In this document: positions 12,001 to 18,000 of the stretch, one piece after another
Numbering within the stretch: position 1 is the stretch's first letter
Layout of the letters: every line of letters begins with the position of its first letter
From: a virus
Taxonomy: Duplodnaviria > Heunggongvirae > Uroviricota > Caudoviricetes
DNA: 33,630 nt
Direction: 5' to 3' (one strand)
IMG/VR virus record: IMGVR_UViG_2534681675_000029
Span: 1 to 33,630 of that record
Program-made: the position numbers

Positions 12001-15000
12001 AACACCAGTCTGGCGTAACGATGATCTGGAAGGCGCTGTCATTGGCGCGTTCTTTCTGCGTGGGGCAGATCATGAAGTGATGGATATTCTGGCCACATTG
12101 CCGGCAGACGTTTTTTCTGTACGAGCGTATCGGGATATCTACACAGGCATCTGCAGACAGGCCCGTGTTTCAGGCGTGATTGACCCTGTGCTGTTGTGTA
12201 ATGAGATGCCGGAACTTGCCCCGGTGATTACTGATACCGGGCGCAAAACCTGGGTGAAGTCTTCACTGGAGCACTATGTTGCAGCGTTGCGGCGCAATGC
12301 GGCATTGCGCGATGCAGAAAAAACGCTGAATGAGGCGCTGCAGAAATTACGTGATGCGCATACCTGTGAAGCGGCTGAAGATGCTCTGAAGGATGCGCAG
12401 AACATGATGGCCTCATTGTCGACGGAAAAGGGCGCTATTCAGCCGGTACATATTGATGATGTGCTTCCGGAAGTGGTTGAGCGTGTTGAATGCCGGAATC
12501 AGGGACAGGAGAAATCCAGGACACTGATGACCGGTATTGATGAACTGGACGCAAAAACAGGCGGCATGGAACCCGGCGACCTGGTGTTCATTGCGGCTCG
12601 TCCGTCAATGGGCAAAACCGAACTGGCGCTGGATATCATCGACAAGGTGACTGAGCAGGGGCATGGTGTTCTTCTGTTCACAATGGAAATGGCGAACATC
12701 CAGATTGGTGAACGCATGGTATCTGCGGCTGGAGGAATGCCGGTATCACGCCTGAAATCTGTCACTCACTTTGAAGACGAAGACTGGGCACGTTTCTCAC
12801 AAGGAGTGGGGCGGATGACCGGGCGCAATATCTGGATGGTGGACCAGGCGAACCTGACCATTGATGAGATATGCGCAACAACGAAACACCACCTGATTAA
12901 ACATCCGGAAACGGCGCTGGTGGTGGTTGATTATCTCGGGCTGATAAAAACCCGAACCACGGGGCGTCATGACCTTGCCGTGGGTGAAATATCAAAGGGG
13001 CTTAAAGGCCTGGCAAAATCTGGTGGTTTTCCCTTAATTGCGCTGAGCCAGCTCTCCCGTGGTGTGGAGTCCAGACCCAATAAACGCCCCATGAACTCAG
13101 ACCTGAAAAATTCCGGAGAAATAGAGGCGGATGCGGACATCATTCTGATGCTTTACAGGGATGAAGTATACAACCCGGATACGCAGGCCAGAGGTATCGC
13201 GGAAATCAATATAACGAAACAACGTAACGGTTCTCTGGGAACGATTTACCGGCGTTTTTATAACGGACATTTTCTGCCCGTAGACCAGGAAAGCGCACAG
13301 GTTCTTTCCACCCCAATGCGGTCATCCCAGCCGCGCAGATACAGCAATAAGCGAACCGACAGCAGTAAGATGGAGCGTTTCTTTTGAACAAACAGACAAT
13401 GACTTTTACCCCTGAACAATTACGTAAACAGGCGCAGGAAATGTTGCGACAGGCGGAACAACTGGAAAAAACAGGTGTAACAAAAGATGCCATTCGTCGG
13501 GATATGGTGCCGGCGCTCAGGGAACTGATGCAGGCGAAGCACCGCGCACAAAAAGCAGTGGATGAGATGGTGGATTGTGTGGCAGAACTGGAAACCAAAG
13601 TTGGTAAGTTTGAAAAACTGGTGCAGGAGGTGCTGCGCTGATGCGCCATGAGTTTATTTTACCTTATCCGCCGACGGTAAATACTTACTGGCGACGTCGT
13701 GGCAACACATATTTTGTATCAAAAGTCGGTGAGCGTTATCGCCGTGATGTGGCGCTAATTGTTCGCCAGCAGCGGTTGAAATTAAACCTGTCCGGAAGGC
13801 TGGCGATAAAGGTTATCGCAGAGCCGCCGGATAAGCGCCGTCGTGACCTGGACAATATCCTGAAAGCACTGCTGGATGCGCTGACACATGCGGGGTTGCT
13901 TATCGACGACGAGCAGTTTGATGAAATCAATATTGTGCGAGGTCAGGTCGTTCCTGGTGGTCGGCTGGGCGTGAAGATTTACGAAATAATGCATGACGGG
14001 CAGGTCCAAAAATGAAACTGGAAGATTTACCGAAATACTATTCCCCGAAATCGCCAGGCCTGACTGATGCATCCGCCTCGACATCAAAAGATGCACTGAG
14101 TATCACTGATGTGATGGCTGCACAGGGCATGACACAGAACTGGGCTGAGATGGGATTTTCTGCGTTCCTGGGGAAAATGGGCATTAGTATGAACGACAGG
14201 GCGCGGGCAACAGAATTACTGGCAGATTATGCATTAAGTCAGTGCGATCGCGTGGCGGCGTTAAGAAAACTTCCGGCAGAAATAAAACCGGCAGTGATGC
14301 GCATTATGGCTTCGTATGCTTTTGAGGATTATGCCCGCAGTGCAGCGAGTAAAAAGCAGTGTTCTTGTTGCCGTGGGGAAAAATTTATTGAAAGCGAAGT
14401 TTTTACAAACAAGGTTCAGTATCCGGATGGTAAGCCGCCAGTATGGGCAAAGTGCACAAAAGGCGTGTATCCGTCTTATTGGGAAGAATGGAAAAAAATC
14501 CGGGAGGTGGTGAAAGTTTCCTGTCCTGAATGTAAAGGGAAGGGAGAGATCTCCACTGCCTGTAAAGACTGCCGTGGGCGTGGTGTTGCCATTCATCGTG
14601 AAGAGTCAGAAAAACGGGGTATGCCTGTTATCAGGGACTGCCGGCGTTGTGGCGGTCGTGGCTATGAAAGACTGCCATCAACGGAGGCATTTAATGCCAT
14701 ATGCAAAGTGACGAGTGCTATCACGCTTGATACATGGAAAAAATCAGTGAAACGCTTTTACGATACGTTGGTGGTTCGGTTTGACATTGAAGAGGCATGG
14801 GCGGAGCGGCAGTTAAAGAGGGTAACGCGATAGTGTTGTTGATTTTTCCCGAATCTGTGGTAAATTTGCTCTAACGATGGGCGTTTTATGCCTGACGTTA
14901 GAAGGATTTTTACAGCCCGCCATCGAGCGGGTTTTTTATATCTGGAAAGCGGTGCATAACGTTAAACGTGATGGCGATTGTGCAATGAGTTTCTCCTGCT

Positions 15001-18000
15001 CTGAAGTCTCTTGACTGCATGGAATCTCCTTTGTTATGTAAGGTGAGTCAATGTTTTTAAATTGTTAGAGAGATGGGTATGGATGACAGTACTCTACTGA
15101 GGAACTCTTCACTTTTTATTGCTTATATGGGCTGTCTTGGATGGGGAAGCGCTTATTTCTATGGATGGGGTACTTCCTTTTACTATGGCTTTCCATGGTG
15201 GGTTGTCGGAGCTGGCGTTGATGATGTGGCCCGAAGTTTGTTTTATGCTGTGACCGTTATCGTTATATTCCTTACTGGATGGGGTGTTGGTATTGTTTTC
15301 TTTTTAGGCATAAAACAAAAAAACAATATACAGAATTTGAGTTTTATCAGACTTTTTCTGGCAATATTGCTGCTTTTTATTCCACCTGTTCTGGAATTTT
15401 CGGTCATTCATCAGTACGTTGAGCCAGATGTGCTTATTTTTTGTGTTATTGCTGTCTTTATAATTACGCTTTTTGTCAGGTCAGGAAGAAAACTTATTTC
15501 AGTCAAATGCTTTTCGGAAGTATCTTTTATTCGCCATCACCGAATTGAGTTCATGATGGCTGGATTCATGATTTATTTCTGGACATTCTCTCTTATTGCC
15601 GGTTGGTACAAACCCCAGTTTAAGAGGGAATATCAGTCGATCCACTATGATAATGTCTGGTATTACGTTCTTGCACGCTATGATGATCGTCTTGTGTTAT
15701 CAAAATCGTACAGAAGTGGGAGTACGAAATTCGTTATACTTAATAGCGGACATATTGATGATTTTGAAATTAACATTGTCAGGGTGCGTTAAAATCACCT
15801 GAGTAACAAAGAATTTTTACTGCCCGTCATTGAGCATTTTTTTATGCCCCGAAAGTGGTGCGGTATATTAAACGCGCTGGTGGTTATTAATACCGGTCTT
15901 TCAGCTTGCTGGCTTTTTCGACAAGAGGTATTGGTATGTCACGTTAACCAGAAAAGGGAAAAAGACATGCTAAAACAGCAGGATATGACCGAAACCGCCA
16001 GAGTGGTGTTTAATGAATTAAGTGTCACCGAACCGGCGACCGTCGGGGAAATTGCGCAGAATACTTACCTTTCACGCGAACGCTGTCAGTTAATACTGAC
16101 CCAGCTTGTTATGGCGGGTCTGGCAGATTATCAGTTCGGTTGTTACAGACGCCTTCCGCAGTGAAGGCTTTTTAATTTGTGGTAATGGGCGGCTGGTGGG
16201 TGTTAGCGGCACCTGCCAGCCATCTGCTCATACGTTGGGGTCACAAGCAAACCTCAGGCCCATCTGCTTTGCGCAAAAGCGGTATGAGCCTATCAGAGAA
16301 GTGCTTATTGATCTATGGTTGATACTGTAAAAATATCCAGTTGTGAGTTAATCAACGCTGATTGCCTGGAGTTTATCCAGGCCTTACCGGAAAACTCTGT
16401 CGACCTGATAGTCACAGACCCGCCATACTTTAAAGTGAAGCCCGAGGGCTGGGATAACCAGTGGAAGGGCGATGATGATTACCTGAAATGGCTGGACCAG
16501 TGTCTGGAGCAGTTCTGGCGGGTATTAAAGCCCGCCGGAAGTCTTTACCTGTTCTGTGGTCATCGCCTGGCATCTGATATCGAAATCATGATGCGTGAAC
16601 GCTTTAATGTGCTGAATCACATTATCTGGGCGAAGCAGTCCGGACGCTGGAACGGGTGCAGTAAGGAAAGCCTGCGGGCGTATTTTCCCGCCACAGAGCG
16701 TATTCTGTTTGCTGAACATTATCAGGGGCCATACCAGCCAAAAAATGGCGGCTATGCGGCAAAGGAGCGCGAGCTTAAACAGCATGTGATGTCTCCGCTG
16801 ATTTCTTACTTTCGTGATGCGCGTGAATCACTGGGGATAACGTCGAAACAGATAGCGGAAGCCACCGGAAAGAAAAACATGGTGTCGCACTGGTTTGGTG
16901 CCCGCCAGTGGCAGTTACCGAACGAAGCTGATTACAACAAATTGCAGGCGTTGTTTGCGCGTGTTGCAGCAGAAAAACATCAGCGCGGTGAACTGGAGCA
17001 GCCACACCACCAGCTGGTCAGCACATACAGTGAACTGAACCGGCAGTATACGGAACTGCTGAGAGAATATAAAAATTTGCGGCGGTATTTCGGTGTGACT
17101 GTGCAGGTGCCGTACACCGATGTGTGGATGCATAAACCGGTGCAGTACTATCCCGGGAAACATCCGTGCGAAAAACCGGCAGAAATGTTGCAGCAGATAA
17201 TCAGCGCAAGCAGTCGTCCGGGAGATCTGGTTGCAGATTTTTTCATGGGGTCGGGTTCGACGGTCAAAGCATCGATGGCGCTGGGACGTCGTGCAATTGG
17301 CGTTGAGCTGGAGACTGAGCGTTTTGAGCAGACGGTCAAGGAAGTTCAGGATTTAGTCAGTCAGAACGGATGATATTGCAGAATTAGTTACGTACCGTTA
17401 TTATCCTGCGCCCGGCCCTTTAGCTCAGTGGTGAGAGTGAGCGACTCATAATCGCCAGGTCGCTGGTTCAAATCCAGCAAGGGCCACCATAACATACCGC
17501 CATTAGCTCATCAGGAAGAGCAGACGACACGATAACAGGGTTGTTGGTGCGGGGTTCGAGTCCTCGATGGCGGTCCATTATCTGCATCATGCGTTGTTAG
17601 CTCAGTCGGACAGAGCAATTGCCTTCTAAGCAATCGGTCACTGGTTCGAATCCAGTACAACGCGCCATATTTATTTACCAGGCTCGCTTTTGCGGGCCTT
17701 TTTTATATCTGCGCCGGGTCTGGTGCTGATTACTTCAGCCAAAAGGAATACCTGTATATGAAGTGTATATTGTTTAAATGGGTACTGTGCCTGTTACTGG
17801 GCTTTTCTTCGGTATCCTATTCCCGGGAATTTACGATAGACTTTTCGACTCAACAAAGTTATGTATCTTCGTTAAATAGTATACGGACAGAAATATCGAC
17901 CCCTCTTGAGCATATATCTCAGGGGGCTACATCGGTATCTGTTATTAATCATACTCCACCGGGTAGTTATATTTCTGTGGATATCCGAGGGCTTGATATC

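What the first reader, a model, noticed from the sequence alone, without database searches (positions are those of the whole stretch)
14861..15900. Membrane-protein moron after Q, flanked by a duplicated ~77-bp regulatory module
A 239-aa multipass membrane protein gene with AT-rich codon usage sits directly downstream of the Q-like gene. It is flanked by two diverged copies of the same ~77-bp element (14904-14980 and 15811-15888); copy 1 carries a terminator-like hairpin plus T-run and copy 2 has it degraded. This looks like insertion of a gene by recombination within the late leader region, and it places an unknown membrane protein on the transcript path that leads to the tRNAs and stx2.
Basis: seen in the sequence. 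Interest (0 to 1): 0.65.

Follow-up and report, generated by a model that had tools for sequence, protein, structure and literature searches.

The report
Membrane-protein moron between duplicated late terminators
In this Stx2g prophage, an extra gene for a membrane protein of unknown function sits just after the late-gene switch, flanked by two copies of the late terminator region; this is an ordinary product of phage mosaic recombination, and only the protein's function remains open.

Summary
A roughly 95-110 nt segment (14879/14891-14985) recurs at 15785/15797-15890 with 66-73% identity, far above chance (z=14). Copy 1 holds an intact intrinsic terminator (-12.3 kcal/mol). In copy 2 the hairpin is destroyed (-3.1). 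Between the copies lies a 237-aa, five-helix membrane protein gene (15079-15792, 38% GC).

The leader is homologous to lambda pR'/tR', so copy 1 is the late terminator plus about 50 nt downstream. Fourteen other Stx2 prophages (subtypes a, b, c, e/k) and many non-Stx prophages have the same Q-TrmB-methylase-tRNA layout with one element and no gene. They are about 910 bp shorter.

The filled arrangement is not unique. 177 of 5426 complete E. coli genomes carry it, mostly in non-Stx prophages. Only this strain combines it with stx.

The gene is Pfam PF27470 (TfpB) / phrog_1521, function unknown. It follows three different Q types, including in phage 434. It also sits next to eltAB on ETEC plasmids, on Shigella pINV, and as an orphan gene in Neisseria and Pasteurellaceae.

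Best reading: two tR'-headed cargo modules stacked by one unequal crossover. It is a new member of a known kind (a moron). Interest is modest.

The parts
14012..14833 (+). Late antiterminator Q (273 aa, lambda-Q family with an extra DnaJ-like zinc-finger insert)
   Evidence: PF03589, E=1.6e-49. 31% identity to lambda Q, E=5e-38. phrog_127.
14840..14866 (+). Late promoter pR'-like: -35 TTGATT (14840-14845), 16-nt spacer, extended -10 TGG-TAAATT (14858-14866)
   Evidence: Aligns with lambda pR' (TTGACT...GGGTAAATTTG). Conserved in L002, L003 and L005. Not called by the strict consensus scan.
14873..14878 (+). AACGAT, a -10-like element in the initial transcribed region (lambda-type sigma70 pause/Q-loading site)
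   Evidence: The block AACGATGGG is identical to the lambda leader. Its role as a pause signal is from established knowledge of lambda pR'.
14879..14990 (+). Repeat copy 1 (core 14902-14976): late leader from about +8/+20, the tR' hairpin, and about 50 nt downstream including TTAAACGTGATGGCG
14914..14944 (+). tR' intrinsic terminator: stem-loop 14914-14933, then TTTTTTATATCTG
   Evidence: Terminator scan. Folds at -12.3 kcal/mol, z=-2.9. The tail is identical to the lambda tR' tail.
15011..15040 (+). Putative own promoter of the membrane gene: TTGACT (15011-15016), then TG-T-TATGTA (15032-15040)
   Evidence: TTGAC(T/G)-N17-TTATG is conserved in M8, HM670, 434, 2B8 and the ETEC plasmid, where the spacer and upstream DNA differ. 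Not called by the consensus scan. Activity is untested.
15079..15792 (+). TfpB-family (PF27470 / phrog_1521) inner-membrane protein gene, 237 aa: five TM helices plus a C-terminal five-strand small beta domain
   Evidence: phrog_1521, E=3.7e-84. PF27470 is precomputed on homologues of 90% identity and lower. AF2 model pLDDT 81.5, pTM 0.74. GC 38%.
15785..15897 (+). Repeat copy 2 (core 15809-15882): second copy of leader, tR' and post-terminator box, with the hairpin destroyed; it overlaps the stop codon of the membrane gene
   Evidence: Folds at -3.1 kcal/mol. The right half continues seamlessly into the TrmB-like module, as in empty sites.
15967..16164 (+). TrmB/MarR-like 65-aa winged-helix ORF (phrog_331), first gene of the second module
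16151..16168 (+). Terminator-like hairpin at the end of the TrmB-like ORF
   Evidence: -9.4 kcal/mol, a weak z-score.
16315..17373 (+). N6/N4 DNA methyltransferase
   Evidence: PF01555, E=6.5e-44.
17414..17667 (+). tRNA cluster (CAT-anticodon tRNA, an atypical tRNA-like gene, tRNA-Arg TCT)
17680..17711 (+). Third terminator, just upstream of stx2A, sharing the 13-mer TTTTTTATATCTG with copy 1 and lambda tR'
   Evidence: (-14.8 kcal/mol). The 13-mer occurs twice in the window against 0.09 expected.
17758..18999 (+). stx2g A and B subunit genes
   Evidence: RefSeq annotation of the identical record.

Best explanation
SHOWN. The interval after Q is a lambda-type late leader: pR', the AACGAT pause element, and the intrinsic terminator tR' about 66 nt downstream. 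In most relatives this single leader runs straight into a TrmB-like-methylase-tRNA-(stx or terB) module. In this prophage, a second cargo module sits between the leader and that module. It comprises a tR' hairpin, about 140 nt of leader and a TfpB-family membrane-protein gene. Both module types begin with their own version of tR' plus a roughly 50-nt post-terminator box, so placing them in tandem produces the two diverged repeat copies.

INFERRED. The tandem arose from a single unequal crossover between two co-resident lambdoid prophages. One parent was of the Q-tR'-mem-tRNA type seen in strain HM670. The other was of the Q-tR'-TrmB type. The crossover used a patch of microhomology, GCGTT..CCTGA, found at the 3' end of the membrane gene and in the early leader. 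Once redundant, the internal terminator (copy 2) decayed.

During lysogeny, pR' transcripts should stop at copy 1. After induction, Q-modified RNA polymerase should read through copy 1, the membrane gene, copy 2 and the two further terminators into stx2g and the lysis genes.

The membrane gene also appears to have its own extended -10 promoter (TTGACT-N18-TGnTATGTA). If so, it behaves as a moron that is expressed in the lysogen, and because copy 2 no longer terminates, its transcript would run into the TrmB-like ORF as far as the hairpin at 16151.

Function of the protein (a guess, about 25%). It is a stand-alone inner-membrane factor acting at the envelope for the benefit of the carrier cell. 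The most plausible role is exclusion of superinfecting phage or DNA entry, as with the HK97 gp15 moron.
For: The repeat is real and significant.

The leader and Q are homologous to lambda pR'/tR' and lambda Q.

Empty sites with one hybrid element exist: the left half resembles copy 1 and the right half copy 2. Fourteen Stx2 prophages lack about 910 bp.

The membrane module keeps its own hairpin and leader behind three different Q families: this Q, a 223-aa Q in M8, and the Q82-like Q in 434 and Yersinia. The upstream non-coding DNA has diverged in step with the ORF: 60-68% identity against 64% overall, window vs 434.

A parent-A-like arrangement, Q-tR'-mem-tRNAs without copy 2, exists in HM670.

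Other mosaic breakpoints fall at the same hairpin. The Stx2g prophage of strain 06-00048 and several Stx2e prophages match the window only from 15837 onward.

Copy 2 is unfoldable, whereas M8 retains a 4-bp stem.

The promoter-like motif is conserved with a variable spacer even on an ETEC plasmid whose upstream DNA is otherwise unrelated.

The gene is low in GC.

It persists as a lone gene in decayed prophages, on plasmids and in the chromosomes of other genera, which indicates a cell-autonomous function.
Against: The direction of the event is not proven. Empty sites could equally arise by deletion between the two copies.

The junction microhomology is short and patchy and could be coincidental. 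The HM670 arrangement could itself be derived from the stacked form.

The strict sigma70 scan found no promoter on the + strand anywhere in 14700-17800. The proposed -10 (TATGTA) lacks the usual final T, and the motif is absent upstream of the pWR501 and C. rodentium homologues.

No expression data exist.

Nothing supports any specific function of the protein. There were no PADLOC, NCBIfam or local Pfam hits, no PDB sequence relatives, and no significant structural neighbours.
Confidence: 0.7

Rival explanations
1. Deletion polarity. The stacked arrangement (tR'-mem-tR'-TrmB) is the older state. The common single-element loci are derived from it by homologous recombination between the two repeat copies, which removed the membrane gene.
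For: The single element in L002 and L003 resembles copy 1 on the left and copy 2 on the right. That is exactly what a copy1 x copy2 crossover would leave. The filled form is fairly common, in 177 genomes.
Against: The copies are only 66-73% identical, with no long identical run, so they are poor substrates for RecA or Red. The hairpins of empty sites carry their own loop and stem variants, matching neither copy 1 nor copy 2. Empty sites are far more numerous and occur with many flanking contexts. The membrane module occurs elsewhere without copy 2.
Confidence: 0.15
2. The membrane protein is a genuine late (lytic-cycle) function, for example in lysis timing or envelope preparation. It is expressed only by Q read-through and is not a lysogen-expressed moron.
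For: In every lambdoid context it lies immediately after tR' and in the same orientation as late transcription, upstream of the lysis cassette. The consensus scan calls no promoter.
Against: It is dispensable, since most relatives lack it. It persists alone where no phage late genes remain: in the C. rodentium chromosome, on ETEC Ent plasmids, on Shigella pINV, and in Neisseria and Pasteurellaceae. A -35/extended -10 motif is conserved with a variable spacer.
Confidence: 0.2
3. The repeats are kept by selection. The post-terminator box (TTAAACGYGMTGGYG and its flanks) is a functional cis element, such as an RNA processing site or a protein-binding site, that is needed in front of each cargo module. 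On this view the repeats are not passive recombination scars.
For: The box is conserved downstream of the hairpin across modules and Q types, including 434. It occurs exactly twice in the window in perfect form.
Against: Its divergence (about 70%) is the same as that of the surrounding non-coding DNA. No Rfam family matches. The third terminator, before stx, lacks the box. With 2 mismatches allowed, the pattern count is not clearly above chance.
Confidence: 0.1
4. The gene is carried by a mobile element, and the flanking repeats are a target-site duplication or element ends.
For: A direct repeat flanks a single low-GC gene.
Against: There is no transposase, integrase or inverted repeat in the 907-bp unit. 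A repeat of about 100 nt at 70% identity is unlike a target duplication. In other contexts the gene has copy 1 only (HM670, 434) or neither copy (ETEC plasmid).
Confidence: 0.02

Closest known systems
Lambda late leader pR'-6S RNA-tR', and the StxS sRNA of 933W/Sp5-type Stx phages (PMC7547250)
   Same: The Q is homologous. The -10 TAAATT, the AACGATGGG initial transcribed region and the terminator tail TTTTTTATATCTG are shared with lambda. A short terminated RNA is expected during lysogeny and Q read-through after induction.
   Different: The predicted terminated RNA is only about 66 nt, against 194 nt in lambda and 258 nt for StxS. A second, decayed copy of the terminator region lies 907 nt downstream. 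Whether the short RNA has any sRNA function is untested.
Morons of lambdoid phages (the Hendrix/Juhala concept; examples are HK97 gp15, lambda bor and lom, and stx itself)
   Same: The gene is present or absent between otherwise syntenic genomes. Its base composition is atypical. It is a single gene with a plausible promoter of its own, bounded by terminator sequences, and it persists in decayed prophages.
   Different: The downstream terminator is degraded in this copy. Promoter activity and expression in the lysogen are unproven. There is no sequence or fold similarity to any characterised moron product.
Phage 434 gene CPT_434_68 ('putative membrane protein', OL657226; PMC9119081) and phage 2B8
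   Same: 56% amino-acid identity over the full length. The gene has the same position, immediately after the terminator that follows Q, and the same conserved upstream motif.
   Different: 434 has a Q82-type Q. The gene is followed by tciB, a small membrane protein and an esterase, with no second terminator copy and no stx.
Short conserved boundary sequences at module junctions in mosaic lambdoid genomes (the Susskind-Botstein modular theory; the Juhala 2000 and Clark 2001 analyses, cited from memory)
   Same: Mosaic breakpoints in many relatives coincide with the tR' hairpin. Both module types begin with it.
   Different: Here two such junction sequences are retained in tandem, so the recombination history is directly visible.
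Moraxella bovis/lacunata TfpB, an ORF in the pilin inversion region. This is the presumed source of the Pfam name, recalled from memory and not verified here.
   Same: Same Pfam family label (PF27470) and a similar size of about 240 aa, as in the distant homologues found here.
   Different: The context is unrelated (a pilin inversion locus). Its function is also unknown, so the name conveys no mechanism. The 'TfpB' of Acinetobacter (a PilB-like ATPase) is a different protein.

Membership tests
Moron (accessory gene unit in a lambdoid phage) | Present or absent between otherwise collinear, closely related phage genomes | tested here: met
   Empty sites in L002 and L003 and in 14 Stx2 prophages that are about 910 bp shorter.
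Moron (accessory gene unit in a lambdoid phage) | Nucleotide composition differs from the neighbouring genes | tested here: met
   GC is 38.2%, against 48-51% for Q, the TrmB-like ORF and the methylase, and 48.8% for the window.
Moron (accessory gene unit in a lambdoid phage) | Own sigma70 promoter upstream | tested here: inconclusive
   TTGAC(T/G)-N17-TTATG, with TG in the extended -10 position, is conserved in five contexts, including an ETEC plasmid with a different spacer. The consensus scan does not call it, and the motif is absent in pWR501 and C. rodentium.
Moron (accessory gene unit in a lambdoid phage) | Factor-independent terminator downstream | tested here: not met
   The copy 2 hairpin folds at only -3.1 kcal/mol, no better than shuffles. 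The M8 relative keeps a 4-bp stem plus a T-run.
Moron (accessory gene unit in a lambdoid phage) | Expressed from the repressed prophage | not testable with these tools
   Requires RNA-seq or 5'-RACE of the lysogen.
Pfam PF27470 (TfpB) / PHROG 1521 | Significant full-length profile match | tested here: met
   phrog_1521, E=3.7e-84, covering residues 19-239. The representative of its 90% cluster (P0003) and all 100 homologues carry a precomputed PF27470 hit. The local Pfam copy lacks this model (0 hits).
Lambda-type Q / pR' / tR' late control region | Q protein homologous to lambda Q | tested here: met
   PF03589, E=1.6e-49. BLASTP against lambda Q gives 31% identity, E=5e-38.
Lambda-type Q / pR' / tR' late control region | Promoter and initial transcribed region with a -10-like pause element | tested here: met
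   GGTAAATTTG...AACGATGGG aligns with lambda pR'.
Lambda-type Q / pR' / tR' late control region | Strong intrinsic terminator shortly downstream of the promoter | tested here: met
   Hairpin 14914-14933 plus a T-run.
Lambda-type Q / pR' / tR' late control region | Q-dependent read-through and a short terminated RNA in lysogens | not testable with these tools
   Requires in vivo or in vitro transcription.
Known superinfection-exclusion or anti-phage defence proteins | Sequence or structural homology to a described system | tested here: not met
Known superinfection-exclusion or anti-phage defence proteins | Blocks infection when expressed alone | not testable with these tools
   Requires plating, adsorption and DNA-entry assays.
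Transposable element with target-site duplication | Transposase or recombinase gene, terminal inverted repeats, short identical direct repeats | tested here: not met
   The unit contains only one ORF of substance. There are no terminal inverted repeats. The direct repeats are about 100 nt long and 70% identical.

The most novel reading that the evidence does not exclude
TfpB-family proteins are an uncharacterised, self-sufficient inner-membrane function. It could be a new single-gene block to phage or DNA entry, or an envelope or virulence modulator. Enteric mobile elements have captured it repeatedly: after Q in lambdoid phages, beside eltAB on ETEC plasmids, and on Shigella pINV. In this Stx2g phage, its own promoter together with the decayed internal terminator would create Q-independent transcription into the TrmB-like/methylase part of the stx leader.
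Probability: 0.2. Interest if true: 0.6.

Novelty: new member of a known kind. Interest (0 to 1): 0.35.

Why it matters
The locus is a clean, readable example of how cargo accumulates between Q and the toxin and lysis genes of Stx phages. Alternative modules each begin with their own copy of the late terminator, breakpoints cluster at that hairpin, and stacking leaves a decaying duplicate. This lengthens the antiterminated leader to stx2g by about 900 nt. It should not impair Q-dependent toxin expression.

The open question is the membrane protein. It belongs to a small family with no solved or recognisable fold and no assigned function. It is nevertheless retained on several classes of pathogen-associated mobile DNA: phage 434, Stx and non-Stx prophages, ETEC LT plasmids and Shigella pINV. 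A simple cloning and phage-challenge experiment could assign it a role.

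Tried and rejected
Searches on the membrane protein that gave nothing:
- The local Pfam, NCBIfam and PADLOC scans found no family.
- A per-member Pfam scan of 34 diverse homologues at E<=5 gave only scattered noise: DUF2070 in 9 members at best E=0.09, and a bPH-like hit in 2.
- A PDB profile search found nothing below E=1.

Structure:
- The first AlphaFold run, on a shallow alignment, was poor (pLDDT 58.9).
- A second run with distant homologues reached pLDDT 81.5.
- The weak resemblance of the C-terminal domain to SH3-like barrels and of the overall layout to MscS is not significant, so I do not claim it.
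- The afdb50 library was unavailable.

Other dead ends:
- Rfam found only the tRNAs in 14000-18000.
- Literature searches for PF27470 and TfpB returned nothing relevant. The hits were chemical abbreviations, a nerve block, and an unrelated Acinetobacter PilB-like ATPase.
- The genome-contig scan returned only six loci and added little. The wider alignment A7 had no segment conserved enough to search with.

Rejected readings:
- The transposon/target-duplication reading.
- The CII-binding-site annotation upstream of the 434 homologue, which is not conserved here.

Full report
Identity of the window. The window is 100% identical to a prophage in E. coli MFDS1022581 (NZ_CP169399.1). The order of features is integrase, early genes, replicative helicase, RusA, Q (14012-14833), a hypothetical protein (15079-15792), a 65-aa TrmB-like ORF (15967-16164), a DNA methyltransferase (16315-17373), three tRNA genes, stx2gA/B (17758-18999), and then holin and lysis genes followed by head and tail genes.

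Check of the observation. The two segments align. MAFFT gives 70 invariant columns out of 107. A local alignment of the two intergenic regions scores 50. In 2000 dinucleotide-preserving shuffles the mean is 17.7, the sd 2.3 and the maximum 29. Copy 1 contains a 7-bp GC-rich stem (14914-14933) followed by TTTTTTATATCTG. The terminator scan calls it and it folds at -12.3 kcal/mol. The corresponding stretch of copy 2 folds at -3.1 kcal/mol, no better than shuffles. The ORF is real, but its start is 15079 rather than 15073. All homologues begin at the second Met, RefSeq uses that start, and the AGAGAG Shine-Dalgarno sequence lies 6 nt upstream of it. The gene has 38% GC in a 49% GC window.

What the repeated element is. 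The Q protein belongs to the lambda-Q family (PF03589, E=1.6e-49; 31% identity to lambda Q, E=5e-38). It carries an extra CxxC-rich insert. The DNA after its stop codon aligns with the lambda late leader. Shared features are TTGA(T/C)T, GGTAAATTTG (the -10 TAAATT preceded by TG), the block AACGATGGG, and the terminator tail CGGG(A)TTTTTTATATCTG. From established knowledge of lambda, AACGAT is the -10-like sigma70 pause signal where Q loads, and the hairpin is tR'. Copy 1 is therefore the late leader from just after the pause site, through tR', plus about 50 nt beyond it. The terminated transcript would be about 66 nt. It is the counterpart of lambda 6S RNA and of StxS in Sp5-type Stx phages (PMC7547250) but much shorter. 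Rfam has no family for it.

Is the gene an insertion? Many relatives have an empty site. In E. coli 2022H048 (L002) and in Stx2a phage EH1910 (L003), the same Q is followed by a single element with an intact hairpin and then directly by the TrmB-like ORF, the methylase and the tRNAs. That single element matches copy 1 on its left and copy 2 on its right. I queried all 5426 complete E. coli genomes with Q through stxB. Only the source strain has the full arrangement. Fourteen prophages carrying stx2a, 2b, 2c or 2e/k match at 90-93% in two pieces and are about 910 bp shorter.

The filled arrangement is nevertheless common. 177 genomes contain at least 80% of 14800-16200. One example is the defective, non-Stx prophage of the OkiPb bovine strains. 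Its membrane and TrmB-like proteins are identical to those here, it is 96% identical in DNA from Q to the tRNAs, and TerB/DUF3927 genes occupy the place of stx. The gene is accessory, and the stacked layout is a circulating module combination rather than a private event of this Stx2g phage.

Module boundaries. The membrane gene occurs after three unrelated Q types. These are this Q, a 223-aa Q in strain M8 (L004), and Q82-like Q in phages 434 and 2B8 and in Yersinia. In every E. coli case, homology to the window starts at the hairpin and runs through about 140 nt of leader into the ORF. Between the window and 434, this non-coding stretch is 60-68% identical, the same as the 64% overall. Hairpin, leader and gene are therefore one co-inherited unit.

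The TrmB-like module likewise starts at a hairpin. Another Stx2g prophage (strain 06-00048, L010) and several Stx2e prophages match the window only from 15837, the T-run of copy 2, onward. Both module types are thus 'tR'-headed', and placing them in tandem necessarily gives two copies.

Strain HM670 (L005) has Q-tR'-mem followed directly by tRNAs, with no copy 2. One unequal crossover between an HM670-type phage (just after the membrane gene) and an empty-site-type phage (early in the leader) would produce the window's layout. At the junction, the two putative parents share a patchy similarity, GCGTT(A/T)3-4..CCTGA. This step is an inference. The opposite polarity, deletion between the copies, cannot be excluded. 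I consider it less likely because the copies are only about 70% identical and the empty-site hairpins carry their own variants.

A third hairpin, just upstream of stx2A (17680-17711), shares only the 13-mer TTTTTTATATCTG with copy 1 and lambda tR'. The 13-mer occurs twice in the window against 0.09 expected. This hints that the stx module is bounded in the same way.

Transcription. With Q, RNA polymerase from pR' should pass copy 1, the membrane gene, copy 2, the hairpin at 16151 and the pre-stx terminator. The extra 907 nt should not matter for a processive antiterminator. Without Q, transcription should stop at copy 1.

Upstream of the membrane gene lies TTGACT (15011-15016), followed after 17 nt by TTATGT. 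This can be read as an extended -10, TG-T-TATGTA (15032-15040). The motif recurs in M8, HM670, 434, 2B8 and on an ETEC plasmid. On that plasmid the spacer and everything further upstream are unrelated, yet the spacing is kept. That pattern is what a promoter looks like. However, the strict consensus scan does not call it, the -10 lacks the final T, and the motif is missing in pWR501 and C. rodentium. I rate an own promoter as likely but unproven. If it is active, the loss of the copy 2 hairpin would let its transcript enter the TrmB-like ORF.

The protein. It matches phrog_1521 (E=3.7e-84, unknown function). All 100 homologues returned by the large search carry a precomputed PF27470 hit, named TfpB. 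The exact sequence is seen on 444 contigs and is always labelled hypothetical or membrane protein.

The family is small. It has 73 representatives at 50% identity among 1.84 billion proteins. Distant members (16-29% identity) occur in Neisseria, Pasteurellaceae and Klebsiella.

Contexts outside phages. These are informative about autonomy.
- A 78%-identical copy lies about 870 bp from eltAB, divergently oriented, on porcine ETEC Ent plasmids, with IS elements around it.
- A 59%-identical copy is on Shigella and EIEC pINV, in 106 Shigella plasmids.
- C. rodentium keeps a copy beside lpxR remnants.
- The Neisseria and Pasteurellaceae homologues are orphan genes between housekeeping genes.
- A Klebsiella-type homologue lies next to icd and an AAA ATPase pair.

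The protein therefore works alone and is kept where no phage late genes remain. That argues for a benefit to the carrier cell rather than a role in lysis or virion formation. I commit, at about 25%, to an envelope-level exclusion or defence role, by analogy with the HK97 gp15 moron. No data here test it.

Comparison with what is known, and verdict. The control region is a member of the lambda Q/pR'/tR' family; three defining features were tested and met. The gene unit meets two of the five moron criteria (presence/absence polymorphism and atypical composition). One criterion is inconclusive (promoter). One is not met in this copy (downstream terminator). One cannot be tested here (expression in the lysogen). 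The protein is a member of PF27470/phrog_1521. It is not a member of any described defence or exclusion family.

Steyert et al. (PMC3491183) drew the Q-to-lysis region of the Stx2g phage of strain 7V, with unnamed 'hypothetical' genes between Q and the methylase, but did not analyse them.

Overall this is a new member of a known kind. It is a textbook-quality mosaic junction carrying a moron of unknown function.

Noticed in passing
L028-L032 and L034 (ETEC plasmids, e.g. pUMNK88_Ent NC_017640.1, CP122871.1); homologous to window 15029-15802: A 78%-identical TfpB-family gene lies about 870 bp from the heat-labile enterotoxin genes eltAB and is divergently oriented. It is flanked by IS elements, with STb and EAST1 nearby. 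Only the ORF, about 45 nt upstream and 10 nt downstream are shared with the window, yet the TTGAC-N17-TTATG motif is retained.
   Followed up: partly
L033 (Shigella flexneri pWR501, NC_002698.1 135269-135985) and 105 other Shigella plasmids: A 59%-identical homologue is a conserved 'hypothetical protein' on the Shigella/EIEC invasion plasmid pINV. No function is assigned.
   Followed up: partly
window 17680-17711: The terminator just upstream of stx2A shares the exact 13-mer TTTTTTATATCTG with copy 1 and with lambda tR' (2 occurrences against 0.09 expected). It does not share the flanking box. The stx module may be bounded by a tR'-like junction as well.
   Followed up: partly
window 20882-31918 (RefSeq annotation of the identical record): The lysozyme, small and large terminase, portal, S49 protease, major capsid, FI and head-tail joining genes are all annotated as frameshifted. 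Either the Stx2g prophage is defective or the assembly has homopolymer errors.
   Followed up: no
L010 (E. coli 06-00048, another Stx2g prophage), locus 384-3130: This Stx2g phage has a different, small Q (115 aa). Three reverse-strand hypothetical genes (about 2.1 kb) separate it from the hairpin that heads the TrmB-like module. Homology to the window begins only at 15837.
   Followed up: no
L002 5127-5710 and L009 7328-7920: In otherwise near-identical late regions, a TerB-family gene and a DUF3927 (TciB-like) gene take the position that stx2 occupies after the tRNAs.
   Followed up: no
window 17497-17577: RefSeq annotates a 'tRNA-OTHER' between the two tRNAs. Neither ARAGORN nor the Rfam tRNA model reports it.
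   Followed up: no
window 15844-16164: The TrmB-like ORF can be read as a 106-aa form starting inside copy 2 (ATG at 15844) or as the 65-aa form starting at 15967. The phrog_331 profile (111 positions) matches only the C-terminal 64 residues.
   Followed up: no
window 15114-15233 vs phage 434 (L007): The DNA encoding the Gly/aromatic-rich N-terminal motif is 82-92% identical between the window and 434, while the middle of the gene is only 38-52% identical. The constraint is strongly uneven, or there has been a recombination patch.
   Followed up: no
L018-L020 (Klebsiella-type contigs): A distant TfpB homologue (P0155) sits beside icd, a classic prophage integration site, next to an AAA_23/AAA_21 ATPase gene pair and SRAP fragments. 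The setting looks like a defence island or an element remnant.
   Followed up: no
L004 (strain M8) 4775-5734, L007 (phage 434) 1166-2125, L016 (C. rodentium) 2863-3823: lpxR (lipid A deacylase), or its remnants, recurs within a few kb of the TfpB-family gene in three otherwise different contexts.
   Followed up: no
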